From the NCBI GenBank assembly GCA_009602725.1, contig WELB01000031.1, positions 913,483 through 953,749 of the forward strand: a DNA stretch of 40,267 bases. The letters are read 5' to 3'. The notes under the pieces were generated by a model that was given only the letters and a program-made list of their open reading frames with translations, had not been told where the DNA came from and did no database searches. The translations under genes were made by a program, and so were the position numbers. Each line of letters starts with the position of its first letter. Within the stretch, counting starts at the first letter, position 1. Origin of the DNA: Spirogloea muscicola. Its lineage: Eukaryota. Positions 1,051 to 39,745 of the stretch are shown here, one piece after another.

Positions 1051-1079
1051 TTTGGTGATACCCACTTGCCAGGGGATTG

Positions 1080-1830: not shown

Positions 1831-2011
1831 ACCCTGACCATTGTCGGGTAAGGCCGAAGCCGAGTGGCATCAACACTACGCCTAAGGAGCCTGTGTCCCG
1901 CCTCGTGCGAGCACAACAGCAACATCCCAGCGGAGCTTGATCAACCACGCCACGCTTTTGTGGCACAGAAGAAGAACAGCATTTCTTCAGGCCGACGGCA
2001 CTCAGGCCAGC

Positions 2012-3870: not shown

Positions 3871-3874
3871 CGCC

Positions 3875-5354
3875 TCCAGCCACCGCACTCCTCGGGCTCA
3901 GAGCGCTTCTTCAAAGTGTTCCACCACTCCCGGGGCTCCCCTGAGAGGTAGGTGGCGCGCGCCCCCGCGTCCGTGTTGGAGCACACGAACCATTCGTCCA
4001 TTGCATCCAGCCATGGCTGCAAACCTCCCCGATCATCGTGACCGGAGAATTGTCTGGGTGCATGGGCCCTGGCAAGTCCATGCTCAGGGTTGCCGCTGCT
4101 CTTGCGCATCAAAAGCAACGAGGCATCCACCTCTTGCATGTGCCGCTCTTCGGCGCGCTGCCAGACGAGGAGGGCGCGCTGCTCCGCGCAGATCTTCGCA
4201 AGAAGCCGGTGTTGAGCTGGGTCCGTCGTAGACTGGGCTGCTGCCAGATCCCGAATGAGGAGTGCAACGCGTTGCAAGTCCCCAGCCGACAAGCCCTCCT
4301 GGCCTCCGGCTCCCAGCTCGACGTGCCCCTCTTGGGCGTGCCCCGCTTGGGCGTGCCCCTCGTGGGCGTGCCCCTCGTGGACGAGCCCCGCTTGGGCGTG
4401 CCTCTCGTGGGCGTGCCCCTCGTGGGGGTGCTCCGCAGCCACTGCCGCAGCAGCTGGCCCTACAGCAGCCGCTGCCACAGCAGCTGTAACGTTCCCGCCG
4501 TTACGGGACGCTTAACTTCGAGTTAAGCGCCGCGCGAGGTGTCGCGCGGTGTGACGCGCCTGCTGACGATGTGACGTGCAGGCGCGCCGCCTCCAGCCGA
4601 GGCGGCGAACCTGGTCTCCCAGAGCGGAGCTTCTCGGCATATTCCTGATTCTGCCGTCGTGTCCACAATGACGTGTATGGGACACGTGTCGCGCGCCTGT
4701 GACGCCGCGCGACACCCGTGACTCACTGGTGGCGCCGCAAGCTGGCGCCGCAAGGCGCCGCCGCGAGGCGGCGCCGCAGGGCGCCGCTCGGCGGCGCCGC
4801 AGGGGCGGCCGCCGCCACCAGAAGGGAGCCGCGTGGTCCGCCCTCGCACTAGATTCCCCGTATCGGGCCCGCCTTCCGAAGGTGGGCCCTGAGACGAACC
4901 CCCCAGAAACCCCTGGGGAGGGTGGCACATGAAGCACTATAAGTAGGGCTGAGAGCGGACTCAGAGGGAACTCGGTCAGTCTCAGTGAAGCCCGCGAGAG
5001 AGAGGCGCGGCCCTGCTGCCGCCTGCTGCTGCAGCCCGTCGCCGCATCCCGTCGTCGCGGACTTTCGACGGCTCTCTCTGAGTAAGACACTGGCTGCTCC
5101 CTTGGGGACAGTCGCTGGCCCGTACCTGAGAGGTGAGTCGCTGCCTGTCGGCAGCGCTCCAGGGCGAGACTTCCGCTGCGTATCACACGTGGTGCTTCAC
5201 TGTGCTGGGGGTTTGTCTCTAAACCCCAGCGACCGAAACCAAAAAGGACGTACTGACCCCTGACTGTGCTGTTAAGGGTCAGGGCCGTTACAGCAGCCGA
5301 CCGCTCTGCCTCCCGAGGAGGGCTCGGCCGCGCACTGGAGGTGTGCGATACCAT
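3875..5354 (-). pseudogene. Gag N-terminal half of element A, interrupted by a solo LTR; contains a His-rich 15-bp repeat
   Basis: MVSHTSSARPSPPREAERSA [LTR] ...(EGHAH/EGHAQ)n...PRQFSGHDDRGGLQPWLDAMDEWF...ATYLSGEPREWW, a Gypsy gag capsid-like pattern. Confidence 0.8.
4485..5292 (+). mobile_element. Solo LTR (family B), 808 bp, with 5-bp target-site duplication
   Basis: Termini TGTAACG...CGTTACA, with GCAGC on both flanks (4480-4484 and 5293-5297). Removing it rejoins the gag frame. Confidence 0.92.
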
Positions 5355-5851: not shown

Positions 5852-6393
5852 TGTAAGGAACCTCGCCCTACACACGCAGTCAGGGTGAGCAGTCCTTCTC
5901 GAGTTCGGCTGTAGGGGGGTTAGGGAGCAACCCACTACACAGGCAAAGCACTAGCGCATAGGCGCAGCGGAGACAGGCCCCGTGGCGCCGCCGTCCGGCG
6001 GCGACTCTACCTCCTGGGCGCAGGCCGGCGCAGCAGGCCCCGCAGCAAGGTGCGGCGGCGGCTGCGGCGGCGAGCAGCGGCAAGGCTGCTCCTGGGCTTC
6101 ACCGGTTCGAACTCCTTCGAGCCTCAGCCCCAAGGCTCTTCGTGCTTCCCCGTGCCACCCCCCTTCCAGCGGTGTGAGCGGGTCGCCCCATGGCCTGCCA
6201 GGCGGCGGGCCGAAGATCCTCCCTTGAACGGGCGGATCCTAGCGAGGTTATTTCTGGACGGGCGAGGCCCGCCTCTGGGCGGGCCACTTGCCCGGCAAGC
6301 CAGCCCGCCACCTGGCGGGCCCACTTGTCCCAAATAGCCGGTCATGTAATGCCAACAGAGCCATGTGGCTTACCAAATGGCTGGTTCATTACA
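5852..6393 (-). repeat. 5' LTR of element A (542 bp)
   Basis: TGTAA...TTACA termini, followed on minus by the PBS. Confidence 0.92.
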
Positions 6394-11506: not shown

Positions 11507-11959
11507 TGGAAAGGCAAAGCACTAGCGCATCCGCGCAGCGGAAGACAGGCCCTGTGGCGCCGCTGTCCGGCGTCAACTCCACCTCCTTGAGGCGCAGGCC
11601 GGCGCAGCAGGCCCCGCAGCAGAGTGCGTCGGAGACTGCGGCGGTGAGCAGCCGCAAGGCTGCTCCTGGGCTTCACCGGTTCGAACTCCTCCTGTCGAGC
11701 CTCCGCCCCAAGGCTCCTCGTGCTTACCCATGCCACCCCCCCTCCAGGGGTGTGAGCGGGTCGCCCCATGGCCCGCCTTGCGGCGGGCCAAAGATCCTCC
11801 CTTGAACGGGTGGATCCTGGCGAGGGGTATTTCTGGAGGGACGGGGCCCGCCTCTGGGCGGCAAGCCAGCCCGCCACCTGGCGGGGCACTTGTCCCAAAT
11901 GGCCGGTCATGTAATGTCAACAGAGCCGTGTGGCTAAGCCAAACGGCTGGTTCATTACA
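11507..11959 (-). repeat. LTR family A copy (partial)
   Basis: Aligns by eye to 5940-6393 and ends GGTTCATTACA. Confidence 0.88.
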
Positions 11960-12189
11960 GGGTCAGCCCGTAGCTTTTGCGAGTTGCCTGCTTCATCCAG
12001 CAGAGTGCAAATTATACTTCAGGAGAGCAAGAGCTCTTGGCTGTTGTGCACGCCTACATGTGTGGCGCTGCTATCTCGAGGACTTGAATCCGCGGTCGTC
12101 ATGGATCATTGCACGTTTACCTGTTCTCATATGAACAGCATCATCTGAGCCGGCGTCAAGCTCGATTAACAGACAGTATGGCATCATTC
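11960..12189 (+). pseudogene. Gypsy RNase H fragment
   Basis: GQPVAFAS..LHPAE..Y...EQELLAVVHA LHVWRCYLE ... HLSRRQAR, read across frameshifts. Confidence 0.85.
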
Positions 12190-13261
12190 TGTAACCTCCC
12201 CGTCATTATGTGACTCTTAGCTGGGGTAAACGCAAACGTGTAGTAGCAGTGGCGCAGCACAGTATCGATATACTCCCGCGCCCTCCCTGACGCGCGAATG
12301 AGGCTCGCGCGAATGACGCGTGCGCCGCGCGCCACACTGACGCGCGGGTGACGCGCGCGCGACTGACGCGTGCGACGCGCGAGTAATGCGCCGCCTCGGC
12401 GCTGCTGCTGCGCGACCGCCGCGCCGCTCCCAGAAGAGGAGCTGCTCGGCGGCGCCGCCGTACTTGTAGTGGCACGCATGTGACACGTGTGGCTCGCCTG
12501 CGACTCCGCGATGCGCCTGTGACGTAGGGCGGCGCCACTTCCAGAAGGAAGCCGCGTGGCGTGGTTCTCGCGAAGTGCCTGTCCTCATAATCGCTTCCCC
12601 CTTGTCGGGCCCGCCTTTTCGAAGGTGGGCCGTGAGGCGAGCCTCCCAGAGACCTCTGGAAAGGGTGAAACATGAACCACTAGAAGTAGGGCTGAGACCA
12701 GACTCGGGGCACCCGGTCAGGTTCAGGGAAGCCCCGCGAGAGAGAGAGAGGCGCGGCCCTACTGCTGCCTGCTGCCGCAGCTCGTCGACGAGCTTGTTGA
12801 GTTCGGCTGTAGGGTGTTCAGGCACCAACCCACTACACAGGTAAAGCACTAGCGCATCGGCGCAGCGGAAGAGAGGCCCCGTGGCGCGGCCGTCCGGCGG
12901 CGAATCCACCTCCTGGGCGCAGGCCGGCGCAGCAGGCCCCGCAGCAGAGTGCGGCGGCGGCTGCGGCGGCGAGCAAAGGCAAGGCTGCTCCTGGGCTTCA
13001 CCAGTTCGAACTCCTCCAGTCGAGCCTCCGCCCCAAGGCTCCTCGTGCTTCCCCGTGCCACCCCCCCTCCAGGGGTGTGAGCAGGTCGCCCCATGGCCCG
13101 CCTTGCGGCGGGCCAAAGATCCTCCCTTGAACGGGTGGATCCTGGCGAGGGGTATTTCTGGACGGGCGGGGCCCGCACCTGGGCGGGCCACTTGCCCCAA
13201 ATGGCCGGTCATGTCATAACAACAGACCAGTGTGGCGTGACCAAACGGCTGGATCATTACA
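12190..13261. repeat. Chimera of a family-B-like LTR start (plus, from TGTAAC) and a family-A LTR (minus, ~12800-13261)
   Basis: 12190-12790 resembles 4485-5040. 12800-13261 resembles 5900-6393 and ends GATCATTACA. Confidence 0.75.
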
Positions 13262-14110: not shown

Positions 14111-15759
14111 TGCTGAAGGAGATCACAATGCATCGAACGAGGCATGCCTCCCAACAAGTATGTCATTTTCGTAACGTCGTGTGTCTGCTGTTTGCAGCAA
14201 GCTTATGCTCATGCTTTGCACCGGAAAGAGAAGCTCGACTGAAGAGTCGCTCTCCCAAAGGGGCCAAGGGCTATGACCAGGAAAGTGATAAAGCTTCAGC
14301 TGGGGGCCAGAAGGGCTTGTCATTTGCCGTCCAGTTTATTGGCATCAGCTAGCAACCTCTACGTGCTGACTCGTGGAGACCGAGGGGGTCAGCTTAGCAG
14401 CAGCGCATGCACATCTGTCGATGTGCTTGCTTTTCTGCTTGACCACTCAAGCCCTCCACCACTCTACAAACGCTCCAGCGCCTCCAGGGTTTCTAAAGTC
14501 ACCGAGGTAAGAAGGAACAGCTCTTCCAGGATAAGGTGATGAATGTGCAAGGCCAAGCGACAGGGATGGACAAGGTCTGAGAAGGCTCGCCCCGTGAGGA
14601 GCGTGCATGACGAGGGAGCACGTCGGATACTTGCAGCTGGAAACGAGTCACTTCGACGACACTCAGAAGCAGCAGCCAAAGTGCCTGCCCCCGGATGCAG
14701 TCCATGAGCCTGGCGCTGCACGCGGAAAACCTGGGCAATCGACCCGGCAGCATCGAAGCCGTGCCAGTTCACCTTGCTGTGTGACACGATTGATTGCCCG
14801 CTGTGCAAGCCGCTGCAGGAGTAAGCAGCAGGGTCCTGTCACCGACTGCCCCCCGGCCTGTCCGCCACCACCGAGGTCAGCAGCAAAGTAACGAGGACCA
14901 CCGACCACCGTAACATCCTTAGATGTGTAGGCCAGTAAGCAGAACGCACGCCCGGCACATCAGTCCCGGTGACTTCATTAACCTTCTTTTGCTCGGCCAG
15001 CTTTGCACAGCCGGTCTCGAAAGTGAAGGCCGTTCTTTCGGAAGTCATTGGTGAATAAAACGTCCACGGGAGCCGTTCACCACCTCCAGACGCCGCCCAC
15101 CAGGTCAAACGCCTCGTGTAATGGACAGGATGCAGAATTTGACGACCAGCCCCGGTGCTCTTCCAAGCCTCAAAGCCAATGGAAGAATGTTCATTCAAAG
15201 GGGCTGTGAAAAAGTCGATCATGTCAGAGGGGAAAGGGTAGAATATGACGAAGCACATTAGGCTTCTAGACGTCGTACTAGATGCTGTAGTGACAAAAGC
15301 CAGCCCGAAAAAATGTACAAGATCCAGAGGACCGAGATGCACTGAAACACAACTGAAGAAACCTATTTCAATCCAATCCCTGCATGACGTCATGCATAGC
15401 ATCACGCAGGAGGATGTGGTAGCGCGTGCGCTGACTGTAATGTTCCCACCAGTTGTGAGCGCTAACAGCGCTGTTCACAGTTACACGAGTGGAGACGCAC
15501 GGTACTAGCCGTTTCGGCACCATTCCGTTCTATCGCGATCTGGTTCTGCCATGTGGCTACAGGTGGGTCCCACCCAAGAGCGTAGGTGGCTCCAGGTGGG
15601 TCAGTTTCGCCCGTGCTAGACGCCGCTTCATGTCGCAGTAGTTGTGCAACCAAAGCGCCGCTGCGTGCCTCCAGCGATTGAAAGCGGATGCGCCACTTGG
15701 TGTAGCGCACCGGCACAAATCCCCATTCGTCCGGTACTACCCTCGGGTAGGCCAAGGGG

Positions 15760-16975: not shown

Positions 16976-17117
16976 AGGACAATCAGATCCGACCGTATGG
17001 AGATAACAGTCGAGAATTGACATAGTACACTCTGTCCGACTCTCCCACACTAGCAAGCATGGGTCTGGAGCATCTACTTGCTACCCTCAAACTGATTACC
17101 ACTGGCCACAAGCTGAC

Positions 17118-17463
17118 TTTGTACACCCACTTGTAACCCAGCGCCTTCCTGCGCTTCGGCAGATCCATCAGCTCCCACTGCTCCGCAGGGTACATAACTC
17201 TGGACATTGACTTGAAGCCAATCGCCTTCTTGCGCTACTGCTAAATTTTCAGCTCTCACGGCTCCGCAGGGTACCTGACCTTGTACAGACCCACTTGCAG
17301 CCAATTGCCTTCTTGCGCTTCGGCTGGTCCACCAGCTCCCACTGTTTTGCAGGGTACCTGATTCTGGACACCCATTGGAGCCAACTGCCTTCTTGCGCTT
17401 TGGCTGATCCATCAGCTTCCATTGCTCAGCAGGATACCTGACTCTATACACCCACTTGCAGCC
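17118..17463 (-). repeat. About 4.3 tandem copies of an ~81-bp unit derived from the start of Ty1/Copia RT
   Basis: Units encode variants of QWELMDLPKRRKALGYKWVYKV (Copia consensus WELVDLPxGRKAIGCKWVYKxK). Confidence 0.8.
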
Positions 17464-18569
17464 TGTGGCCTTCTCCCGCTAGTGCACTCCTCAACACCTG
17501 TGGCCTTCTCCCGCTAGTGCACTCCTCAACACCGAGCCCGCCTAGTCCGGTCGCTCCCAAGTCGCCGCAGCCTCAATGGCCACCGATGCCGCCGCCGCTG
17601 TGCCGCCATGGCATGGGGCATTTGCAATATGATATCAGAGGATTGGTAGGCGGCACGATAACTTCAAGGCGTAGGACTGGCGGACGTGGCGGTGCAAGGT
17701 GGAGGGGACAATGCAGGCGTATCGACTGTGTGGCGTCATCTCGGAGGTGATGACGCCCCACAGACGGTACGCCTGCAATGCCCAAGTCGGAGGCAGCAGA
17801 TTCAACTCAAGCATGCGTTCCTCGCTGCGCCATGTCGTGCCTGCGCGTATGGCGCTCACTACGCGTCGAGGAGCCACACCTGGAGAAGTCCACCTACAGG
17901 CCAGGACTCTGCCTGACTAACGGCTAGAGATAGCGTCGGATAGAGGCAGTCGAGCGGGCCGCAGAGCCCCGAGGCGCAGGGCGCCAAGTCCTTGTATGTA
18001 CTGCCTTGACCACCCCTCGCGGGGTGGACTCTTCAGAGATTGGACGGCGGAGAGAGGCTATCTCTCTGCAAGCCCCCCGTTGGAGAAAGTCCGAGCGCCG
18101 CCGCCACCGCAGCCAACGCTCCAGGCCAGGGTGGCCAGGGGGCGGCGAGAGATCCACCGGCGGGGGGAGCACGCAGGTGGCGCGAGATTGGAGGCGGTGG
18201 TCGCAGCGACGAGGAGAGCCCAGGCCGGGCAGACCCTCCGGGAGAGGCCATCTGACTCGCGGAGAGGCCGCGCGCACATCGGGTGAGCAGGGCTTGGATC
18301 TTATCTGGATGCCCAAACGGAGCCGCGCACGCTACTCGCTCTCGCCGGCGGACTGGCGGCGCAACGAGGCGGATCCGCAGCCGGACAGGCCGGAGGCCGG
18401 TTCGGTGAGCAGCGACAGCGACTGCGAGGACAGTGTGCCCTTCTTGAGCGCGGAGAGCGGTCCCGGCATGGACCAGGAAAGAGGCTGCGGCGGCAGCAGG
18501 GAAGCGCTACACAGGGAGGTCGGATGGGACCTCCCTGGTGGAGCTCCAGATGAGGGTGGAGGCGTCCCC

Positions 18570-20101
18570 GCAGAAGAGTGCGGCGTCGGCTGCGGCGGCG
18601 AGCAGCGGCAAGGCTGCTCCTGGGCTTCCCGGGCTCGAATTCCTGTCGAGCCTCAGCCCCCAAGGCTCCTCGTGCTTCCCTGTGCCACCCCACCTCCAGG
18701 GGTGTGAGCGGGTCGCCCCATGGCCCGCCTTGCGGCAGGCCAAAGGTCCTCCCTTGAACGGGTAGATCCTGGCGAGAGTAATTTGGGACGGGCGGGGCCC
18801 GCCTCTGGGCGGGCCCTTTGCCCGGCCAGCCAGCCCGCCACCTGGCGGGCCACTTAGCCCAAATAGTCGATTATGTAATGACAACGGAGCCGTGTGGCTA
18901 AATCAAACGGCCGGTTCAGTACATACCTCCCCACTCTGGTGTTCACGTTCTCGGGAACAACGAGAGAACAGCCGACAGGTATTAAGATGCCCGACGGCTG
19001 CTGCCTCTACCAAGCCTAGGAGAATTACCACCTTTGGCCAGGTATTCCCTGAGAACATCTGGACAATTTGCCAAATTAGCCGCAGGCTCCCACGTGTTGT
19101 GCTCAGGCCAATACCCGAGCCACTTTACCAGATACTCACGGGTCTTACGTCCTCGGAGCTTGTCCCTGTGAGAGGCTTGGAGAAGCCAGCTGAGGATGGG
19201 ATGGTTGCTTTCGCCTCGGCGATAAGAACCACCTCATCTAAGTCTTATGAGTCTGGTGAAGTGGCTCGGGTATGGGCCTGAGCACATCACGTGGAGCCTG
19301 CGGCCAATCTGGCACATTGTCCGCCTGCTCTTTTGGAACACTTGGCTAAGGGTGGTGACTCCCTAGGCTTGGTCGAGGCCGCATTCGTCGGCCGTAAAAC
19401 CTGTCGGCTGTTCTCTCATTGTGCCCGAGGACGTGAACAATAGAGTGGGGATGTATGTAACGAGCCGTTTGGTTATGCCACACGGTGCTGTTAGCGTTAC
19501 ATGACCGCTAGCCATTTCAGCGGGCCCGCCCAGGTGCGGGCAACTCCCGCCAATCCTGGACTGACCCTTGCCAGGTTCCACCCTGCCAAGGTGGGGACCT
19601 TGGGCCCGCCGCAAGGGCAGGCCTTTGGGCGACCCGCTCACACCCCTGGAGGGGGGGGGTGGCACGGGGGAAGCACTACGAGCCTTGAGCCGAGACCTGA
19701 CCTGACATCAGTTTGGACCGGCAAAGCCCAGGAGCAGCCTTGCCGCTGCTCGCCGCCACAGCCGCCGCCGCAGCCTGCTGCGGGGCTCGCTGCGGGGAGT
19801 CCGTGGCTGCGCCCGTTGAGGGCCAATTGCTGGCTCGCGCCCAGGAGGTGGGGTCGCCGCCGGACGGCGGCGCCTCAGGGCCTGTCTTCCGCTGCACTAG
19901 GCGCTAGTGCTTTGCCGTGTAGTGGGTGGATCCCTAAATCCTCTACAGCCGAACTTAACAAGGACGACTCACCCTAATTGCGTGTGTTGGGGCAAGTTCA
20001 CTACAGGCGGGGCCCGCACCTGGCGGGACACTTGTCCCAAATGGCCGGTCATGTAATGCCAACAGAGCCGTGTGGCTTAATCAAATAGCTGGTTCATCAC
20101 A
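18570..20101. mobile_element. Two chromovirus 3' ends joined back to back (LTR-PPT-chromodomain, then chromodomain-PPT-LTR), plus a further LTR-A tip
   Basis: 18570-19171 matches ~110-697 (minus). 19172-19455 is a diverged plus-strand chromodomain end plus PPT. LTR 19456-20005 runs TGTAACG...CTACA. 20006-20101 is an LTR-A terminus. Confidence 0.85.
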
Positions 20102-20249
20102 ATGCGCCTCGCAGCAAAAGAGAAGCCTGTCGCGTATCGGCGGCTGAGGAGGGTTCCTGAGGATAGGGACGCCGGCCAAGCAGGAGCGCCTGCTGGTTGA
20201 CCCCATCGGTCATTTCTGTCAGCTGCTGGCAAGGCCGTTTAAGAGTGAC

Positions 20250-21350
20250 ACGGCCGCCAAGGTGGCGGAGCTCGTCAACTTCCGGCGGCTGCCCAGGAGG
20301 ACGTGATGGTCATGGCCCAACGCATGAAGCAGCTGCGGCGGGACACTGGGAGGATGACGGAGGTCGACGGAGCGCAGAAGTCCTGGAGGCGCTGGGTGGA
20401 TGCAAGAAGGGCGCCTGGCTGGAGCAGCAGGTCTTCACCGCCTACGGCAGCAACTTCACCATTGACCAGGGGGCCGAGCTCGCGGGCGAGGTGAAGCGCC
20501 ACTTCGTGAGGAAGGCGGTGGAGGTGGCGGTGTAGGCGAAGGGCGAAGTGAGGCGGGCTGCCCAGCCTCGACAGTGGTCGGTGTCCCTGCCCTGGCAGTG
20601 GCGGGAGCCTACCAAGCCGTCCGCAGCTTGGCGGCAGCGGTCGTGCCAGCGGGGCCGGCTCGGGCCATTCAATGTTACACCTGCGGCCAGCCGGGGCATG
20701 TCCGGCGGGACTGACTGCCCAAGGGGGGCCGGCATGCGGCGCCCGCACTGCGGCAAGGCGGGCCACGGCGCGGACGCATGTTGGACCCTCCACCCCGAGC
20801 AGCGGCCGGCGCACCTGCAGGCGCATGCGGCGCTCCAGGCGGCCAGGCCGCGGCGGCTGCACAAGGGAGGGATGGGCAGGCGCCAGCTGCCGCCCAGGCC
20901 AGCTCATCAAGCACCGAGGTGGAGCTGGTGAAGAGAGAGCTGAGGGAGTTGCAGGCCACGATAGTGGCCAAAGCTGCGGTGGCGCAGTGGATCGGAGGCG
21001 GAGAGATGACGAGGCGGCGGACCACCACCTTCGCAACGGCTTGGGGGTAGAGGTGGTGGACGCTGGGATGGCGGGACGGCATGGGCACGGCAGCCGCCAG
21101 CCGACAGGGAGCGCGGATCGCCTGGCGGGCGAGGAACACGGCCGGAGGAGCAGGGCACTTGCTACCCGTTGTCCTTGGCACGGGTGGTGGAGGGGGCGGC
21201 GGACGGCCCAGCGGCGGTCTACTCGCAGCCCGCGGTGGCCCGGGCAGGCGCAGGGTGCGTCACCGCACATCGTTCGACGGCCGCGCTCATGAGCACGCCG
21301 CTGCCGTCATTGGCGGAGGTGGGCTGCTCGGAGGCGATGCTTCGGAAGGC
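20250..21350 (+). pseudogene. Gag-like region with zinc knuckle (DNMT-Gypsy)
   Basis: (C>R)PHCGKAGHGADACWTLHPE at ~20740-20800. The downstream part is repeated at ~23110-23520. Confidence 0.65.
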
Positions 21351-21659
21351 GCTGCAGCAGCACCCTCTGGGCATGCTGGAGGGCGACGTGACGGGTTCGA
21401 GTGAGCCACCTCAGGCCGCGCGGGGGGCGGACACCCCGACCACCTCCACCATCAGTGGGTCTTCCTAAGGGGGCCCCTGCAGGTCGCTTCAACCTGAGCC
21501 TGGGGTGGAGGAAGCAAATGTACTGCCTGACCAGTTGCTGCGGCGTTCCCTGGCACAGAGCCAGCGGCAGTGGCGCAGTTGCATGCACCCAGCACTCGCG
21601 TTTTGGGGGCTGCCCATGCAGGGGGAAGCCCGTCAATTTCCAAGCGGCGGGTGGCGGAG

Positions 21660-21790
21660 CGCGTGAGGGTCATCCCCAATGTGGCGCTGTTGGCGAATGA
21701 AGGTGGCTGTATCACCTTCGACGGGAAGGCGCCACAGCGCGTAAAATTGGATACCGGCGCGCAGCCGGTGCTGCTGGGCCGCAGCATGTC
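21660..21790 (+). pseudogene. Aspartic protease, N-terminal half
   Basis: PQRVKLDTGAQPVLLG (DTG at 21750-21758). The C-terminal half (AQDLQPS...YDVLLG) is at 24165-24365. Confidence 0.8.
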
Positions 21791-22420
21791 GCGACTGCAG
21801 GTCCTGCGCGTGCAGCCTCATTTTACGCGCTGTGGCGCTTTCCCGTTGAAGGTTATACAGCCACCTTCATTCGCCACCAGCGCCACGTTGGGGATGACCC
21901 CACGCGCTCCGCCACCCGCCGCTTGGGAAGCGACGGGCTCCCCCCTGCATGGACAGTTCCCGAGACGCGAGTGCTCGGTGCATGCAACTGCGTCACAGCC
22001 GCCGGCTCCGCAGCAGGGGTTGCCGCAGCAACTGGTGCAGGCAGTACATCCACTTCCTCCACCCCAGGGCATTCAATGCGTGCAGGCTCAGCTTGAGGCG
22101 ACCTGCAGGGGCCCCTTTCGGAAGCCCCATAACTATTAGAGGTGGTCGGATGGTCCGCCCCCTGGGTGGGCTTAGGTGGGTCCACTCGGACCCGCCACGT
22201 CGCCCTCCAGCATGCCCGGAAGGTGCTGCTGCAGCACCTTCCGAGGCATCGCCTCCGCGCAGGCCAACGTTCCAGGTCAGGTTGGCCAGAGGGCCAGAGC
22301 GGCGAGACATCCCCCGGCGGGGTGACCACGCGGGAGTGAGTGGGAGGCGCAGGAGGCGCACGCCAGGCCAGGGCAGGTCAGGCCAGGATAGAACCTTGAC
22401 TTGCGAAGAGATAGGTGCGG

Positions 22421-22600
22421 TGTGGTGATGCTTCTTGCCACTTCTTGCCACTGGTGATGCTTCTTTGCATGTTTGCTCAGTTGGTAGTGAGGCCATGCAG
22501 GGCAGGCTGCTGCTACCCAAGCAGAGTCCTGGCCTGTAGGCGGAGTGCCAGGTGTGGCACCTCGACGCATTGTGAGCGCTATACGGTCAAGCACGGCACC
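22421..22600 (+). repeat. LTR family C fragment (LTR of the DNMT-Gypsy element)
   Basis: Starts TGTGGTGA and matches 26685-26850. A further inverted piece lies at ~17830-17912. Confidence 0.7.
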
Positions 22601-22609
22601 GTCCGCTCC

Positions 22610-23075
22610 CCTCCCCGTAGGTGTACAACCTGGCAGAGGCTCACAACCCTTGGTTGATGAGGTTGTGACGGAGGCGTACAAGAGTTCCGCATCGACTCAC
22701 ATCGCTGGCTACGCAGTAAAAGGTGCAGAGCAGAGAAAGCTCCTACACTGCCCTGACTACCCCTGCAGTGATGACCTCCTACCAGCTGCAATCGAGACTT
22801 TCAGCTGCATGGTTCTCGCTTCCATACCCTACTTGAGAATATTGCAAGTCTGGAACATGCTCAACGTGAGGATCTGCTTCCAGCTCAGATGGGCATGCCG
22901 GCAGCCTACTTGTCATTCTTGCGACGTCGAGTGTCAGCTGGTCTGCAGCGGGCTCATGCGTTGCATCATAAAGCTGGTCGAGCTTTAGCTGGTAGCTCAA
23001 GAGCTTGTCGATTGCCGTCCGGTAGTCGGGCATCACTTAGCGACCTTCCTGTGCTGACTCGTAATTACTGAGCGG
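22610..23075 (+). mobile_element. RLE endonuclease C-terminal region of a CRE-like non-LTR element (decayed)
   Basis: LVDEVVTE...GYAVKGAEQRKLLH...PAAIETF...FLRRRVSAGLQRAHA...SDLPVLTRNY*, which fits the D-V...AExxK...ETFG...SVxLQR pattern. Confidence 0.75.
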
Positions 23076-23944
23076 GTCAGCTTGATAGCAGGTGATGTAC
23101 ATTTGATGATAGCCGCCGCCACGGCGGCGCAGGCGGATCAGAGGCGGAGAGAGGAGGAAGAGGCGGACCATCGCCTTCGCTACGGAATTGGTGTGGAGGT
23201 GGTTGATGCAGCGATGGCGGTGCGGCATGGGCGCGGCAGCCGCAAGCCTCCAGGGGGTGCGGATCCCTTGGCGGGTAGAGAGCACGGCCGCCGTGAGCAG
23301 CAGGGCGCGCGATATCCGTTGTCGTTTGCACGGTTGACGGAGGTGGCTGCAGACGGTCCAGCGGCAGTGAATGCGCAACCAGTGGTGGTCGGAGAGGCCG
23401 TGGGGCAAGTCTCCGCGCGGCAGCTAGCGGCCGCACTTATGAGAACGCCCTTGCTGTCATTGGCAAACGTGTTTGCTCAGAGTTGGCGCTGAGGAAGGCG
23501 CTGCAGCAGCACCTTCCGGGCGCGCTGGAGGGCGACGTGGCAAGGTCGAGCGACACGCCCAAGGCCGCGCGGGGGGTGAAAATTCCCCAACCGCCTTCAA
23601 CAATCAATTAGGGGCTTTCGAAAGGGGCCCCTGCAGGTCGTCTCTATCTGAGCCTGCACCCAATGATCGGGATGGAGTTGAAGAAGTGGAAGAATTTCTG
23701 CAGCAGTCCTGCATTTGGTGCCGGCGGCAGAGGCACAGTCGCATTCACCGAGCACTGGGGCCCTGGGGGCTCTGCCCATACAGGGGAGAGCCGGGCGCGT
23801 GGGGGCGGACATCCGACCGCCTACAGCGACTCAGGGGCTTCCGATGGGCTCCTGCAGGTCGATTCTACCCCTTCTGCCTGCGCTGGCATCTTTGGGTGAG
23901 AAATTGGTGGCAGTGGAGCAGCCACCAAGCAATCGTGCCGTTGG

Positions 23945-24165
23945 GCAACGCTACATTCTCATCAAGGCGGAGCATGCAAGCAAGTGGGTGGAAGTTGTGG
24001 CAATCCCAGACAAGTCCAGCTCGCTGATGGCAGCTTGCTTCTTGGATCGGGTGTTGTGCCGCTTTGGGGCCTGCGCGGAGGTGCTGACCGACGGACGCAG
24101 CGAGTTCCGTGGCGACTTCGACGAGCTCGTGGAGGTGGCTCTAATCGACCACCGGACAACTTCGC
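23945..24165 (+). pseudogene. Integrase catalytic core, N-terminal half
   Basis: YILIKAEHASKWVEVVAIPDKSS...RFGACAEVLTDGRSEF...IDHRTTS. Confidence 0.88.
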
Positions 24166-24759
24166 GCAGGACTTGCAGCCGTCCCCTATCGCCATAAAGA
24201 CGGCAACGGGAGGCGTCTCGGTGGGCCTGCGCCAGACCAAGGAGCCTATCTGTATCACCGTCAACAAGGGTGGTCCGGATGAAGTCAGCCAGGACCTTCC
24301 CTGCTTGCTCACGGAGGCTACTTCCTACGACGTGCTCCTTGGGACGGAGTTTTTTAAACCAACGGGGCGAGTATCGACGTATGGGAAGAGGTGGGGAGAT
24401 ATCGCCCCGGGGCTGCATGCGGAGAGGGGCGTCAGGTGGAGTTCGCACTGCAGCTGATAGCTGCAGCGGAGGATGGGGCCGCATTCGCTTGCTACGGAGA
24501 AGCCGTGGGTGGGTAGCGACTTGTGTGACATGCCGCAGGACGAGGCAGCCACCACGTCACTGGCACCCGTGCGGCTGGGAGCAGCTGGCGTTGGCCATAG
24601 GCCCGTGGTGCAAGCGAGGCAGGTGGAAGAGCTGGTGGACCGTGCGTGGAAGCAGCTGCCCCTGGTGGCGCAGGAGTTGCCAACGTGTCCGCCGCCGGTT
24701 GTGCAGCTGCACGGAGAGCCGCTGGTGGATAGCACGGTTATTGAGTGGCCGATCCCAGA

Positions 24760-25695
24760 CGGTGGGGTCGTCCTAGTGGAATTCTTTGCCGGCATCGCCA
24801 CCGGGTTGGCGGCGGTGCTGGCTAACGGCGTGCGCGGCAAGCGGTACGTGTACGTTGAACCAAATCTGGTGGCGCAGGCGGCAGCAGCGCACCACACCCG
24901 GCGGCTTATAGACCAGTACCCGGAGCTGCTGACCTCGGAGGCCATCGAGGGGTACCTCACCACCCTGCCGGCTGACATCCAGCTATTGGGCCATAACACC
25001 TGGGGGGATTGGGACAGGTGGACCCGGTGGTTGCAGATTGGGAGTGCCAAGGGCATTCCAGCGCTGGTGCAGGCCGAGGGTTGGCTGACCACCGCTCGCG
25101 GCTCTTCTGGGAGTTGGAGCGTATTTTGGCGCTGCTGTAGGGGGGGCAGGAGGCCCCCCTGGCATACGTGTTGGAGAACTTGCCGGCAGGCGACGACCGC
25201 CGCACAAAAAAGCGGCGTAACTTCCAGGTTGTAGAGAGCCGCATTGGGCGCGGCGTGCCTCTGAACGCAGCTGCTCTGGGCAGCCGCGCGCACCGGCTGC
25301 GAGTGAAGTGGACCAATATGGCGCAGCCAGAGGTGGTGGCAGCTGCGGCTGCGCTAGTCAAGCGCCCAGCCGGGCTGTTAGTGGCGGACATATTGGACCC
25401 AGGAAGGATGCCTCAGCCAGTGGAGGGGGACGACATCCTCCGTTCGCGCTGTGCAACAAGGTGGGGCAGCCGCGGGCGGCGCTGCCCACGCTGGTAAGCT
25501 ACAGGGCGTCTTATGCATTCAGGAGTGGAGGGCCCGGCATGGTCTGGGACAACACCACGCAGCAACTCGAGGAGCCCCTTGCCGACGAGCGGAAGCGGGC
25601 GTTGGGCTTCCGGACCCGCACAACCGCAGCCCCTGGCTCACCGAGAGGCAGAGCCGGAAGATGTTGGGGCAGGCGATGGATCTGAGGGCTCTCAG
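24760..25695 (+). pseudogene. C5 cytosine DNA methyltransferase domain (DNMT3-like motifs), frameshifted
   Basis: Motif I LVEFFAGIATG; motif IV VD.VVA.WECQGHSSAG (Cys codon 25045-25047); GLADHRSRLFWE; motif VI YVLENL (25174); motif VIII GSRAHRLR..WTN; motif IX ERKRALGF; motif X RKMLGQAMD. About three frameshifts and a TAG at 25138. Confidence 0.9.
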
Positions 25696-25999
25696 TGGGG
25701 CGCAGGGGCTCTACATACAGTGGGCAGCCCGAGCAGGCGCTGGCGGCTTTTCACTGAGGGGTGGGAGTAGAGTCGCAGCACGAACAGTTGGCGCACAAGG
25801 CCGCGTGGGGGGCGGACACCCCGACTGCCTGCAGCAACGATTTGAGGGCTTCCGAAAGGGGCCCCTGCAGGTCGATTCAATTCCTTTTGCCTGCTTCGGC
25901 ATCCTTGGGTGAGGAATCGGTGGCAGTGAAGCAGCCACCAAGCACTCGTGCCGGTGGGGCGGTCCTTGCAAGGGGGAGCCCGTCGCTGCATGGGGCCCA

Positions 26000-26480
26000 G
26001 CAGCAGGCGGATGGGCTGGCGGAGCTGATGGTCCAGACAGTCGAGAAAGGATTGCGGAAGTTTTGCCTGGAGAGGGACACCAGGGATTGGAATCTTTTCC
26101 TTCCTTGGTTGCTGATGCGGTACCGAATGAGTAAGCAGGCGGCGTTGGCGAGCTACTCGCCATACTTCTTGCTCTTTGGCAGGCATCCTCTGCTGCCAGC
26201 TGCCATCCGACCGCAGGTGGAGCCAGTGGTGGACATGAACAGCCCAGGGCGCTGGGTGGCGATCTGCGAGGAGCGCGGGAGGCTCTTCCGCAGGGTCATG
26301 CCGATGGCGATGGACAACCTGGCGGTGGCGCAGCATCGCGACAAGCTGCGTTACGCGCAGGTGCGATCGGCCAAGCACCAGCCACGGGTGATGAAGTTCG
26401 AGAAGGGCGACTACGTGTACGTGCAGCGCCAGCAGCGCAGCACCTTGGACGCGGGTGTCCGGCGGGTCGTCTTGCAAGTG
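26000..26480 (+). pseudogene. Integrase catalytic core, C-terminal half, and downstream region
   Basis: QADGLAELMVQTVEKGL...WNLFLPW...YRMSKQ...SPYFLLFGRHP...FEKGDYVYV. Confidence 0.88.
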
Positions 26481-26612
26481 AAGTGTGTGGTGGCTTGAAC
26501 ACCAACTATGCTGCTATGCGATCGTTGTAATGAGGGGTGGCACACTGGCTGCCTGCAACCACCTCTTGCTGAGGTGCCGGCGGGGCAGTGGTTGTGCCCG
26601 CGCTGCGCATAG
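26480..26612 (+). pseudogene. PHD finger at the pol C-terminus
   Basis: EVCGG (shifted frame), then MLLCDRCNEGWHTGCLQPPLAEVPAGQWLCPRCA* from ATG 26508. This is a C4HC3 PHD pattern not shown in the ORF track. Confidence 0.92.
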
Positions 26613-26673
26613 CGCTGTCATACTTAGGATGCTTAAACCTCAAAGGATGCAGCTGCCTCAGGTCCAGGCAGCT

Positions 26674-26850
26674 GGGGGGGGGGGTGTGGTGACTCTTCTG
26701 CCACAATCTTTGCAGGTCTGCTCATGTGGCAGTGAGGCCATGCAGGGCAGGCTACTGCTAGCTAACAAAGCCGAGTCCTGGCCTTGAGGCAGAGCTTCAG
26801 GTGTTGGCACTTCGACGCATAGTGAGCTCTACACGAGCAGGCACGACAGG
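26674..26850 (+). repeat. G-run PPT and start of 3' LTR (family C)
   Basis: G11 tract at 26674-26684, then TGTGGTGA at 26685, preceded by the hairpin CAGCTGCCT-N7-AGGCAGCTG. The right end could not be determined. Confidence 0.7.
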
Positions 26851-27934: not shown

Positions 27935-36298
<8,364 letters not shown>

Positions 36299-36429: not shown

Positions 36430-37530
36430 CTTCAGCTGACTCGGGGCTCCCAAGCTTCTCGGACCCGAGGCTGCTTAGGGGGCGATGCCCGGCTTCAACG
36501 CCGCCGCTTCGCTCGCACAAGTCCTCCGCATGTTGATGTTGCTCACTCGTGGGTACTGAGCTTTCCTCTGCATCGTTTGTGTGTTCTGCAGTATGTTGTA
36601 GTGTAGTCCTTTCTCCGGCTCCTCTTGCTTTGGCTTTGGACATTGTCCATTCTTTTTTGGGCTGGCTTTGCCAGCCCCTCTTTTCTATGGGCGCGCTCTT
36701 CTCTTTCCGCATCCGCCTGGCCGTATCGCTTCAACGCTCCCTTGCCCACGCTGTCCACACGCAAGCAGGCCGTGCCATGGCCGCCGCCTCTGGGTCTCGG
36801 CGGAGTGCCTCTTTCCCTGCAGCGAGCAACTCAGACCTGATGTTGCTCACTCGTGGATACTGAGCTTCCCTCTGCAGCGTCTATGTGTATTGCAGTGTTT
36901 TGTAGTGTAGTCTTTTTCCGGCTCCTCTTTCTTTGGCTTCGGACATTGTCCATTCGTTTTTGGGCTGGCTTTGCCAGCCCCTCTTCTCTATGGGCGAGAA
37001 CTTCCATTTGCTTAGCAGGGGTTACTGAGTGCTTCGTGGCTGCTTCGGTTCTTCTTGTGCTTGTTCTTCTTAGTGCTTCCCCTGGCCCCTTCTCGTACTT
37101 TGTTCGTTCTTTCTTGGCTGGCCTTCTCCAGCCCCTATCCTCAATGGGCGAGCCCTTCTCTCCTAAGCTCCCATCCCCTGCTAGGCTATGCAAGAGCCTG
37201 GGGCCTTTCGCCCTCTCCTGGAAGCGTCGTTCCTATTTCGGCCCGCTCTCTCTTCTGACATTGTACGTCCTTCCGGGCTGGCCTTGCCAGATCTTGCTGG
37301 GCTGGCTTGCTGGGAAGAGCTATTGCCCTTTCCAGGCTCACGCCGCACGTTTGACGGGCAGGCCGCTCGCTTTGTCTGCTGCTTCTGGGTCTCGACGTTG
37401 TGCCATTTCTCCGGCTGCAAGCTGCTACTCTCACTTGCAGCAGCCTCTGGCTTGCGCAGCGGGGTTGCTCTTCCTCCCCTCAGCTCATCTGACTTCCTAC
37501 TGCTGACCCGGGGGTACTAAGAGCGCCCTG
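36430..37530 (+). mobile_element. Head-to-tail array of RLE-element 3' stubs
   Basis: LLTRGY*/LLSRGY* ends at ~36559, 36863, 37028 and 37520, each (except the last) followed by the GGCTGGC..CCAGCCC UTR motif. Confidence 0.75.
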
Positions 37531-37829
37531 TCTGCCTAGCCTGTGGCTCCGTCAAGAAAACCTGTATGCATCTGGCTGGCTTTCACAGCTCTATTGATGT
37601 CAGCAGCCGCATTCTCCGGCTGTATGCTTACAGCACACTCCCTCTAAAGCTTGTGCCTTCCCATCGGCCCGTTTGGAAGTGCTTCTTCTCCATCGGAAGA
37701 GCCTCTTGTTGGAAGTAAGCACTTCCCAAGGGCAAATCTTCCTGGCAAAGGGCTGTGAAAACCTGAAGCTCTTGCGAAGAGCGCGAGGGCTGGAAACCGG
37801 AAGCAGATCCAAGGGCTGTCCAGAAAGTG

Positions 37830-39745
37830 AAGTGGCTCTCCAATGGGGGCAAGGCTGAGCAAGGTTCGAAGAGAAGTGCGCGGCGATAGAGAAGAGGGGC
37901 TGGCAAAGCCAGACCAAAAAAGAATGGACAATGTCCAAAGCCAAAGAAAGAGGAGCCGGAAAAACGACTACAGTACAAAACACTGCAGAACACATAGACG
38001 ATGCAGAGGGAAGCTCAGTACCCACGAGTGAGCAACATCAGGTCTGAATAGCTCGCTGCAGCAGGGAAAGAGGCACTCCGCCGAGACCCAGAGGCGGCGG
38101 CCATAGCACGGCCTGCCCGCGTGTGGACGGCGTGGGCAAGGGAGCGTTGAAGCGATACGGCCGTGCTCGAAGGAGCCTGCCTTCGTCTTGCTGGTGGGCG
38201 AGCTGCGGCGTCGTGCAACGAGCGAGGGAGACCAGCCCCGCCAGGTCCCGCAGCTGCGGACGACTGCAGGGGAGGTGGTGACATCATGAGGCCTCCCCAT
38301 TGGCCAGCAGCCCCCGCCCTGCGCCCCCGTGGCGCGCAGGCCGGGCGCCTTGCCGCCTTGCCGTCCGCCTCCCATTCATACAGCATCTTCCAACCATACA
38401 TTGTTTTGAGATCAGGAGGACATAACGTGCCATCACCTGCTTTAATCATACCAGTGTGCATTTGATCCAAGATGGAAGGCAGTGGTGTGCAAGGCCAGCC
38501 CAGAAAGAATGGACAACGTCCAAAGGGCCGAAAGGCGCCAAAATCACACAAACTATGCAAGAGACTACAGCTAATGGGAGGTTAGTAGCAAGCGCGGCCA
38601 GATTAAGTGGTGGCTGGGAGAGGCCAGCCCAAAAGAATGGACAGTAACGCCGAGTCAGCAGCCGCTAGTCAGAGTAACTTGCGGCTGAACAGAGAGGAAG
38701 TGGCTCTCCCAATGAGGGCAAGGGCTGTGAGAAGCCAGCCCGAAAAGAATTGACAAGGTTCGAAGGGGCCAAATTACGAGCTAAGCAGCGACTGCGGGGC
38801 CTGAAGAGGCTATGGCAGAACTGGGGAGGATGGACACTCAGTAGTTACGAGTGAGGAGCCTCACATCCGACAGACTAGCTGCCGGAAAACTATCCCCCTG
38901 AAAAGAGAGGAGGCGAGCGGTGACCATGTGAATGAAAAGGAGGCCAATCCGGGCCTTACAAACGTCCTGGTAACGGGGCTTTGAGCTGGCTAAGGGGGAC
39001 AGACATATCCTCGAGTCAGCACATACATATTGACAAGCTAAGCTGAGGGGCCAGACCACCGCCATGCAAGCCGTTAACCTGGCCTAAAGCACGCCCTGCA
39101 CGCTGGTGTATCGCGAGTGCCTGGGAGCGCTGCAGACATAATGATAGCCGCATTCTATGGCAAGCAACAATGGCTTGCGGGATGCAAGAGAAACAGCGCT
39201 GCCGAATCGACTGGCGGCTATGAATGCCCTAAGCTACCCGCCCGACTTCGTCGGTGGGCATCGATGTATTGGGCCAGGCGATGGAGGAGGGAAGACCACT
39301 TCATTCCGTAGCCGCCGCATATGTCCTTGGCGCATGGGAAGAAGTGGTCGCCCCGGGGGTGGTCCATACAATGCCTCTCCTTCTTCTCCGCATGATGTGT
39401 CGCCCAACCTGGCACATGCGTCCCCCTGGTTGGGATGCATCAACACGAACGACGTCGAGGAGGATACGAGGCCCACCGCTCCGGGGGGTAACAACCACAT
39501 CCAGACGCCTGATGTAAGGTCTGCCGCGCTTCTGGAGTACCGGCATGATGCCCGGCACCTCCGTGGCCGCATGAAAACCTGCCTCGCAGACAAATCCATA
39601 CATAGCATCTCCCAGGAGATTGTGGGAGGCATTACGTTCACCTCCCTCAATACATCGAAGCATGTGAGTTGCCAGCGAGATCTCGTCCTCTGAACGATGG
39701 CCACTTTCACACTGTCGAATGCCAGGGGGGAGGCCGAGGCGGTTG
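37830..39745 (-). mobile_element. Oppositely oriented RLE-element array ending in the longest copy (zinc-knuckle-like region plus PD-(D/E)xK endonuclease), 5'-truncated
   Basis: RLGLP...QCESGH...HMLRCIEGGERNASHNLL...TEVP...RRLDVVV...ILLDVVRVD, then (shifted) AEKKERH..HPRGDHFFP...LHRLA, and SDVRLLTRNY* at 38838. 37875-38162 is an inverted copy of ~36715-37000. Confidence 0.8.

What the first reader, a model, noticed from the sequence alone, without database searches (positions are those of the whole stretch)
24165..26850. Gypsy retrotransposon carrying its own cytosine methyltransferase plus a PHD chromatin reader
Seen: a complete set of C5-MTase motifs (I, IV, VI, VIII, IX, X) hidden across frameshifts directly after the protease, and a PHD finger ending pol after the integrase, where neighbouring elements have a chromodomain. 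Established: DNMT-encoding Gypsy elements have been reported in charophyte algae (de Mendoza et al. 2018, recalled), so the class is not new. PHD fingers read the H3 tail, and DNMT3 pairs its catalytic domain with a PHD-like ADD domain. Inference: the element may pre-methylate its cDNA and target integration by histone state, a writer-plus-reader epigenetic toolkit inside a transposon. This copy is dead, and its catalytic motif reads EC instead of PC.
Basis: partly seen in the sequence, partly recalled or inferred. Interest (0 to 1): 0.75.

Follow-up and report, generated by a model that had tools for sequence, protein, structure and literature searches.

The report
Green-algal Gypsy element with DNMT3 and PHD
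This is a broken, internally scrambled copy of a green-algal jumping gene whose intact relatives carry both a DNMT3-type DNA methyltransferase and a PHD finger, so the element likely methylates its own DNA and is predicted to read unmethylated histone H3 tails; the methyltransferase-carrying class is already known, but this version looks more widespread than reported.

Summary
The DNMT and the PHD finger are real, and they belong to one retrotransposon family. Intact relatives encode gag-PR-DNMT-RT-RH-IN-PHD in one ORF (P0030, P0045). A larger sister lineage puts the same DNMT between RNase H and integrase (Haematococcus, Hariotina). Of 64 relatives with DNMT and a full integrase tail, 59 end in a PHD.

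(1) This copy is scrambled. The protease-half plus DNMT block (1834 nt) sits inside the integrase core; gag and the other protease half lie 2.4 kb upstream; RT and RNase H are missing; the PHD lacks its first CxxC. (2) EC instead of PC is not decay. It occurs in 79 of 100 near-complete relatives, all of which keep the catalytic Cys and the motif VI Glu.

The DNMT is DNMT3-type by profile and fold. The PHD resembles readers of unmethylated H3K4. Activity and targeting are untested.

Gypsy-DNMT3 (Klebsormidium), PHD-bearing algal Gypsy elements and methyltransferase-plus-chromodomain elements are published. The DNMT3+PHD pairing, EC motif, second architecture and chlorophyte range were not found in my searches. 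Verdict: new variant of a known kind.

The parts
20166..20808 (+). gag remnant with zinc knuckles (CYTCGQPGH at 20673; second knuckle ~20746-20808), frameshifted; no 5' LTR, abuts a fragment of a neighbouring element's repeat at 20012-20101
   Evidence: family GAG profile iE 5e-6; tblastn with P0002/P0004/P0006/P0030; self-blast
21320..22266 (.). 947-bp foldback (arms ~80% identical) whose centre truncates the protease
   Evidence: centre bridged by a 178-nt contig without differences in runs X2 and X3
21407..21639 (+). internal ~200-230-nt repeat 'S' (G-run plus a GC-rich hairpin) in the gag-protease linker; further copies at 21927-22178 (-), 23555-23792, 23795-23945, 25792-25988
   Evidence: nhmmer with a profile of the five copies finds only these five in the window
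21726..21794 (+). N-terminal half of the aspartic protease with the catalytic motif (LDTGA 21747-21761)
22421..22598 (+). second, ~80% identical copy of the element's LTR-like repeat
   Evidence: blastn 22462-22598 vs 26707-26848, 80%; starts TGTGG by direct reading
23122..23792 (+). diverged (72%) second copy of the gag C-terminal linker and repeat S
23937..24167 (+). N-terminal part of the integrase core with the second catalytic Asp (LTDG 24084); H2C2 finger and first Asp absent
   Evidence: Pfam rve E 1.2e-4, below cutoff; family IN profile 81.7 bits
24164..24435 (+). C-terminal half of the protease, frameshifted near 24355-24376; begins the 1834-nt block that interrupts the integrase
   Evidence: PR profile iE 5e-14; tblastn continuity with P0004/P0006; junction bridged by contigs without differences
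24719..25735 (+). DNMT3-type C5 cytosine methyltransferase, motifs I-X, motif IV WECQ; three frameshifts and one in-frame stop
26003..26483 (+). rest of the integrase core (catalytic Glu in ADGLAE, 26007) and C-terminal region, cut by a deletion at ~26483
   Evidence: other copies continue past 26483 with integrase-like sequence (loose end) and join 24168 to 26003 directly
26502..26609 (+). PHD finger ending pol, first CxxC deleted
   Evidence: Pfam PHD E 5.9e-11; PDB hits; alignment
26674..26848 (+). polypurine tract (G11, 26674-26684) followed by a 164-nt TG...CA LTR-like repeat (26685-26848)
   Evidence: direct reading; repeat copies at 22421-22598 and, in part, 17830-17912 (-)

Best explanation
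The locus is a dead, rearranged copy of a green-algal Ty3/Gypsy LTR retrotransposon whose intact relatives encode gag-protease-DNMT3-RT-RNase H-integrase-PHD; in living elements the DNMT is likely an active de novo cytosine methyltransferase despite its EC motif, and the PHD is predicted to bind unmethylated H3K4. Shown: domain content, linkage in single ORFs, DNMT3-type fold, conservation of the catalytic residues, and the scrambling of this copy. Inferred: as part of Pol the enzyme is packaged with RT and integrase and methylates the new cDNA or the fresh insertion; the integrase-fused PHD steers integration away from H3K4me3 promoters into H3K4-unmethylated chromatin, the same mark that animal DNMT3 reads through its ADD domain (recalled). 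A new copy would then arrive methylated in chromatin where that does little harm to the host.
For: Linkage: P0030 carries Pfam protease 635-730, DNA_methylase 954-1085, RVT_1, RT_RNaseH, Integrase_H2C2, rve and PHD in one 2300-aa ORF; P0045 has the same order. Of 64 DNMT+integrase proteins that extend at least 150 aa beyond the integrase core, 59 have a PHD: 56 of 56 in architecture B, 3 of 8 in architecture A. The window's DNMT groups with architecture A (26 of 103 rows, SH 99) and so do both integrase pieces (11 of 69 rows, SH 99); the RT/RH tree also separates B (46 rows, SH 99). Selection at protein level: among 79 EC-type domains at 42% mean identity, Cys IV 79/79, Glu VI 79/79, Asn VI 79/79, Arg VIII 78/79 and 77/79, Gly I 77/79; in 42 polyproteins DNMT identity (0.41) is near RT (0.44), RH (0.51), IN (0.49). 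Family profile best PDB hits are DNMT3A (E 3e-23), then DNMT3B/C, DRM (6e-14) and M.HhaI (3e-7). The model of EC-type P0112 (pLDDT above 89 over the domain) matches DNMT3A-DNA 6f57, TM 0.82 by target. Precedent for a non-proline motif IV in an active enzyme: DNMT5 has Ser there (10.1101/2021.10.01.462825, passage). PHD: the 60 best of 75 PDB hits shown are CHD4, Lid/KDM5, KMT2C/D, WSTF, PHF21A, ATXR5, KAT6, BAZ2, AIRE, UHRF1 and similar, with no ING, BPTF or TAF3; the aromatic-cage position two residues before the Zn-binding His is Gly in 50 of 57 and Trp in 1. Two intact-type loci are CpG-poor (o/e 0.32-0.47 in pol).
Against: No activity or binding was measured. KnitGypsy-Dnmt3 gave no methylation in yeast (inconclusive; PMC5890265). 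Glu for Pro in the catalytic loop has no tested precedent in my searches; the analogous Ser change in S. pombe DNMT2 was once read as inactivating. The window's element is not more CpG-depleted than its surroundings (0.80-0.84 against 0.79 for the window, 0.72 for the ABC gene region), and the depletion in L001/L002 can be host-made. Five of 8 architecture-A proteins with a long tail lack the PHD, so the pairing is not obligatory. PHD fingers are a common accessory in algal transposons without a DNMT (PMC9940879, PMC8557442, passages). No single intact element from this organism could be shown: no genome is held, contigs are short, and none listed links DNMT to RT. Trees are FastTree, midpoint-rooted, without host DNMT3 outgroups. 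The assignment of the PDB hits to H3K4me0 readers and of the cage residue is recalled knowledge.
Confidence: 0.62

Rival explanations
1. The EC-type DNMT is conserved as a SAM- and DNA-binding module with little or no methyl transfer, for example a covalent trap or shield on the cDNA, or a decoy for host methylation machinery.
For: The near-invariant Pro is replaced in 79 of 100 domains. The Klebsormidium domain was inactive in yeast. No extra CpG loss in this copy. None of the 78 weakly matching non-family loci retrieved has EC.
Against: Cys IV, Glu VI, both Arg VIII and the SAM-binding motifs are kept as strictly in EC as in PC members. PC members are scattered at about eight places among EC members in the tree, read, which suggests the two states are interchangeable. 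DNMT5 works with Ser at this position.
Confidence: 0.2
2. DNMT and PHD are independent accessories. The PHD is the generic algal-transposon integration aid and predates the DNMT, and there is no writer-reader coupling. The DNMT may serve self-silencing or host benefit.
For: PHD occurs in Chlamydomonas Gypsy-7a and other algal transposons with no DNMT reported. An architecture-A subclade keeps DNMT without PHD. The two domains lie about 1000 aa apart in architecture A and would likely be separated by the protease. de Mendoza et al. list self-limiting or host-benefit roles.
Against: 59 of 64 relatives keep both, and in architecture B the DNMT sits directly before integrase-PHD. These are related sequences, so the count is not a set of independent events.
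Confidence: 0.45
3. The adjacency is an accident of scrambling or of assembly: an unrelated DNMT gene landed inside a PHD-type Gypsy element.
For: The PR-DNMT block does interrupt the integrase in this copy, and the region is full of foldbacks and nested fragments.
Against: Intact single-ORF relatives exist. DNMT and integrase pieces map to the same lineage. The 24165 junction is bridged by contigs without differences, although these runs are one sample and may be the source of the assembly.
Confidence: 0.04

Closest known systems
KnitGypsy-Dnmt3 of Klebsormidium nitens (de Mendoza et al. 2018, PMC5890265; parts 1-5 of 7 of the main text and passages of the peer-review file read; Fig. 4c and Supplementary Information not visible)
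   Same: DNMT3-type domain inside the Pol of a Gypsy element in a green alga; self-methylation of cDNA already proposed there for DNMT-bearing retrotransposons. Architecture-A relatives include Mesostigma and Closterium proteins, so this may be the same lineage.
   Different: The text read names no PHD, no EC motif, no domain order and no chlorophyte members. It describes a DIRS-like repeat layout, which could not be tested here. Its figure may show a PHD; I could not see it.
EpiLTRs of Cymbomonas and Euglena (bioRxiv 10.64898/2026.05.21.726589; passages and Discussion read)
   Same: A methyltransferase and a histone reader combined in one LTR retrotransposon; the 'epigenetic toolkit' idea is stated there.
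   Different: They carry a DAM adenine methylase, a DNMT sister to DNMT4 and a chromodomain. Here it is a DNMT3-type domain and a PHD, with no DAM or chromodomain seen. That paper lists Gypsy-DNMT3 as streptophyte.
PHD-bearing Chlamydomonas Gypsy elements: Gypsy-7a_cRei (PMC9940879, passages) and REM1 (Perez-Alegre 2005, not held; seen only as cited)
   Same: PHD finger in the polyprotein of a green-algal Gypsy element, proposed to reduce harmful insertions; Gypsy-7a inserts intergenically 2.6 times more than expected.
   Different: No DNMT reported. The Gypsy-7a legend lists PHD before integrase, whereas here it ends pol.
Animal DNMT3A (catalytic domain plus ADD)
   Same: Closest solved sequence and fold, including the AHR-R-FW-N motif VIII.
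Chromoviruses
   Same: Gypsy element with a chromatin reader at the integrase C-terminus; such an element lies in the same window.
   Different: PHD instead of chromodomain, plus the DNMT.

Membership tests
Ty3/Gypsy LTR retrotransposon | pol order PR-RT-RH-IN with Ty3-like RT and integrase (family level) | tested here: met
   P0030 domain order; best PDB hit Ty3 Gag-Pol E 3.7e-101
Ty3/Gypsy LTR retrotransposon | RT and RNase H present in this copy | tested here: not met
   no RT or RH hit in 20100-26850 by tblastn or profile; read as deletion because relatives have them
Ty3/Gypsy LTR retrotransposon | polypurine tract followed by a TG...CA 3' LTR | tested here: met
   G11 at 26674-26684, repeat 26685-26848
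Ty3/Gypsy LTR retrotransposon | 5' LTR with primer-binding site, and target-site duplication | tested here: inconclusive
   no LTR copy upstream of gag; the copy at 22421-22598 is not followed by TGG
DNMT3-family C5 methyltransferase | motifs I-X in canonical order with catalytic Cys, motif VI Glu, motif VIII arginines | tested here: met
   (spread over broken frames in this copy, intact in relatives)
DNMT3-family C5 methyltransferase | closest in sequence and fold to DNMT3/DRM among solved C5 methyltransferases | tested here: met
DNMT3-family C5 methyltransferase | Pro-Cys dipeptide in motif IV | tested here: not met
   EC in this copy and in 79 of 100 relatives, PC in 20, DC in 1
DNMT3-family C5 methyltransferase | de novo cytosine methylation activity | not testable with these tools
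   needs an assay
KnitGypsy-Dnmt3 / streptophyte Gypsy-DNMT3 | DNMT3-type domain in the polyprotein of a Gypsy element | tested here: met
KnitGypsy-Dnmt3 / streptophyte Gypsy-DNMT3 | streptophyte algal host | tested here: inconclusive
   neighbouring host gene is far closer to plant-type ABCC2 (E 1.5e-89) than to yeast YCF1 (3e-45); DNMT groups with a Mesostigma protein on a long branch; Atlas nearest cluster mostly Streptophyta; organism name is coded
KnitGypsy-Dnmt3 / streptophyte Gypsy-DNMT3 | one clade with the K. nitens sequences | not tested
   no K. nitens sequence was returned under that name; the representative search could not be run
KnitGypsy-Dnmt3 / streptophyte Gypsy-DNMT3 | DIRS-like arrangement of terminal repeats | tested here: inconclusive
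   copy scrambled; L001 and L002 show only short repeats 3' of pol and are cut by contig ends
Chromovirus | chromodomain at the integrase C-terminus | tested here: not met
   PHD instead
EpiLTR | DAM plus DNMT4-related DNMT plus chromodomain | tested here: not met
   no DAM or Chromo family in the 18 relatives scanned; DNMT is DNMT3-type
H3K4me0-reading PHD finger | no aromatic cage, acidic residues before Cys1 and after Cys3 | tested here: met
   Gly at the cage position in 50 of 57, Asp/Glu after Cys3 in 51 of 57; alignment; the criterion itself is recalled
H3K4me0-reading PHD finger | measured binding to the unmodified H3 tail | not testable with these tools
   needs a peptide binding assay

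The most novel reading that the evidence does not exclude
A single, old green-plant lineage of Gypsy elements carries a non-canonical (Glu-Cys) DNMT3 that has moved between two positions in Pol and works with an integrase-fused H3K4me0-reading PHD. This would rebuild the DNMT3-ADD logic inside a transposon. In chlorophytes, where reviews report no host DNMT3/DRM, these elements could be an unrecognised source of de novo cytosine methylation.
Probability: 0.3. Interest if true: 0.78.

Novelty: new variant of a known kind. Interest (0 to 1): 0.52.

Why it matters
DNMT-carrying Gypsy elements were described from one charophyte, and their enzyme was never shown to work. The data here widen the family to both streptophyte algae (Mesostigma, Closterium) and chlorophytes (Haematococcus, Hariotina, Chromochloris), with two Pol architectures and many intact ORFs. 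That supplies natural, testable enzymes for two questions: whether a Glu-Cys motif IV can catalyse C5 methylation, and whether retrotransposons pre-methylate their cDNA. If the PHD reads H3K4me0, writer and reader follow the same rule as animal DNMT3, reached independently. A review passage (PMC9861306) reports DNMT3/DRM homologues only in Cyanidioschyzon and Klebsormidium among 12 algal genomes, so element-borne DNMT3 may matter for chlorophyte methylomes. The window copy itself is only a fossil.

Tried and rejected
Pfam on 12 single ORFs did not detect the DNMT or protease pieces; homolog profiles were needed. No whole genome is held, so genome-wide copies could not be counted and dN/dS was not computed. 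The search of 1.84 billion representatives could not be run, so there are no host DNMT3 outgroups and single versus double capture of the DNMT is open. A metagenome scan with the window peptide found nothing among 286 pattern matches. No RNA holder listed. Contig depths are not used as copy numbers. The maximum-likelihood tree did not finish in time, so FastTree was used. CpG depletion as a sign of self-methylation: absent in this copy. A peptide repeat corresponding to repeat S was not found in self-comparisons of the 28 architecture-A proteins. The S hairpin folds only weakly better than mononucleotide shuffles (z from +0.1 to -2.4). Earlier scan findings: none by words, place or sequence. 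The Atlas search with the host ABC gene did not resolve the lineage. Rejected: EC as a decay mutation; assembly artefact at the 24165 junction; membership in chromoviruses or EpiLTRs.
Full report
Observation. Three-frame translation shows C5-methyltransferase motifs in order between 24779 and 25681, broken by three frameshifts and one TAG. Pfam saw only rve (below cutoff) and PHD among 12 ORFs. A search with the catalytic segment returned 10 proteins at E down to 2.7e-36, six annotated DNA_methylase. Profiles built from relatives alone place protease, DNMT, integrase and PHD pieces in the stretch, and the DNMT profile hits nowhere else in the window.

Anatomy. The element is larger and more disordered than reported. 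Gag lies at 20166-20808 and the protease half with DTG at 21726-21794, where a 947-bp foldback cuts it. After an LTR-like copy (22421-22598), another repeat and a 72% duplicate of the gag linker come the integrase N-part (23937-24167), the protease C-half, the DNMT, repeat S, the rest of the integrase (26003-26483), a truncated PHD, a G11 tract and a 164-nt TG...CA repeat. RT and RNase H are missing. Four runs of one sample hold the stretch and may be its source. Their contigs bridge the integrase/protease junction and the foldback centre without differences. At 80% likeness, contigs in all four runs join 24168 directly to 26003, so other copies have an uninterrupted integrase. One loose end shows protease N-half sequence before 24163, and another shows integrase sequence continuing past 26483. 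Other copies also lack the first DNMT frameshift (table 4). No listed contig bridges the junctions at ~26000 or ~26490, but the tables were cut. A CGCGC overlap at the first junction suggests a template switch or microhomology repair (inference).

Family. Searches with the DNMT region of P0030 returned 63 long and 66 shorter proteins. Two architectures emerge: A, gag-PR-DNMT-RT-RH-IN(-PHD), 28 proteins; B, (PR-)RT-RH-DNMT-IN-PHD, 69 proteins; 38 are too short to assign. Named sources are Mesostigma viride and Closterium for A, Haematococcus lacustris and Hariotina reticulata for B, and a Chromochloris model (label Chrzof1) whose DNMT groups with B. Most others are unnamed metagenome proteins. 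DNMT, integrase and RT/RH trees all separate A from B with SH 99. The window's DNMT and both integrase pieces are in A. These are FastTree trees with long branches and no host outgroup; P0005 and P0013 (cluster mates of other rows) and domains under 280 profile columns were left out, except P0001 and P0143, which were added by hand. Of 64 proteins with DNMT and a long integrase tail, 59 have a PHD; one of the five without may be truncated.

The EC motif. Of 100 near-complete domains 79 have EC, 20 PC and 1 DC. EC members keep Cys IV, Glu VI and Asn VI in 79 of 79 and the motif VIII arginines in 78 and 77 of 79, at 42% mean identity; DNMT is about as conserved as RT in 42 polyproteins. PC members are scattered through the tree. 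Among the 80 loci, only L002 has EC; L001 and the 78 distant loci have PC. In one search other copies differ from the window at two sites just before the Cys, and no change at the Glu codon is among the 40 rows shown (308 hidden). So EC is inherited. The window's Asp before WECQ, where all 79 EC relatives have Gly, is private damage. DNMT5 is active with Ser at the Pro position (10.1101/2021.10.01.462825, passage). One targeted paper search (7 hits, 3 checked by passage) gave no Glu precedent.

Enzyme class and reader. The family profile matches DNMT3A best, then DRM, then bacterial enzymes. The predicted fold of EC-type P0112 matches DNMT3A/B. The PHD's best solved relatives are CHD4, KDM5 PHD1, PHF21A, ATXR5, BAZ2, AIRE and UHRF1 types, recalled as readers of unmethylated H3K4, and it lacks the cage tryptophan.

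Mechanism. Most likely the DNMT travels in the particle as part of Pol and methylates cDNA or the new insertion, while integrase-PHD favours H3K4-unmethylated chromatin. Both steps are inferred. Against: no added CpG loss in this copy, the negative yeast result for KnitGypsy-Dnmt3, and PHD-less A members. For: CpG o/e 0.32-0.47 in the pol ORFs of L001 and L002, without a proper host baseline. Functional coupling of the two domains is the weakest link; the rival of independent accessories is compatible with an active DNMT and is not exclusive of the best reading.

Known work. PMC5890265 (main text parts 1-5 of 7; passages of the peer-review file; Supplementary Information too large, figures not held) describes KnitGypsy-Dnmt3. 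bioRxiv 10.64898/2026.05.21.726589 (passages, Discussion; supplements closed) describes EpiLTRs and calls Gypsy-DNMT3 streptophyte. PMC12344493 (passages) also limits retrotransposon DNMT3 to streptophytes and dinoflagellates. PMC9940879, PMC8557442 and PMC6673714 (passages) document PHD fingers in algal transposons. PMC6338049, PMC2774666, PMC9861306, PMC7022712 and PMC6709928 were seen as passages. REM1 (PMC1291216) was not held. Nine searches showed no paper describing DNMT3 plus PHD in one Gypsy element, the EC motif, or the RH-DNMT-IN order; most hits were judged from listings, and a thesis, Repbase entries or the unseen Fig. 4c could contain them.

Verdict. Real feature, dead copy, new variant of a known kind. 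Interest 0.52. The value lies in the intact relatives, not in this locus.

Noticed in passing
window 509-2824 (-), repeats at 1-697, 5852-6393, 11512-11961, 12793-13261, 18566-19922: Chromovirus-type neighbour with zinc knuckle, protease, SH3 and chromodomain that appears to lack most of RT, RNase H and integrase; its repeat recurs many times in the window.
   Followed up: partly
window ~3328-4484, 18566-19785, 21320-22266, 36534-38162: Four large foldback structures made of retrotransposon sequence within 40 kb, arms about 70-96% identical; the one at 21320-22266 is bridged by contigs, so at least that one is in the DNA.
   Followed up: partly
window 21407-21639, 21927-22178, 23555-23792, 23795-23945, 25792-25988: Internal repeat S with a G-run and a GC-rich hairpin, in two subtypes (before the protease; after the DNMT). 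It lies at several rearrangement junctions. Could be an internal polypurine tract or packaging signal (speculative). A similar hairpin motif is in the repeat at 4865-4962 / 12608-12705.
   Followed up: partly
window ~28100-33400 (-): Intron-containing host ABC transporter gene, closest to plant-type ABCC2 (E 1.5e-89); points to a green-lineage host.
   Followed up: partly
window 17830-17912 (-) and 17113-17485: Partial third copy of the LTR-like repeat followed by TGG, a possible primer-binding site; nearby an ~81-nt tandem repeat with four copies.
   Followed up: no
window 22620-23105: A different repeat with many loose contig ends is nested between the LTR-like copy and the gag duplicate; part matches 14292-14417.
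   Followed up: no
proteins P0002-P0004, P0006, P0047, P0107: Several architecture-A ORFs stop 70-165 aa after the DNMT, with same-length cluster mates for four of them, hinting at a programmed break between gag-PR-DNMT and RT.
   Followed up: no
proteins P0131, P0139, P0150, P0153, P0156: A divergent subclade with motif IV 'SPCQGLS'; four PC-type rows have Met in place of the motif VI Asn.
   Followed up: no
proteins P0097, P0116, P0121: Extra precomputed Pfam domains in family polyproteins: PF00293 in P0097, PF01585 in P0116 and P0121 (recalled as NUDIX and G-patch).
   Followed up: no
L001 7272-8738; L001 and L002 pol ORFs: L001 has an unannotated 489-aa ORF downstream of pol and a frame change between RNase H and DNMT; both loci are strongly CpG-depleted with TpG/CpA excess.
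   Followed up: partly
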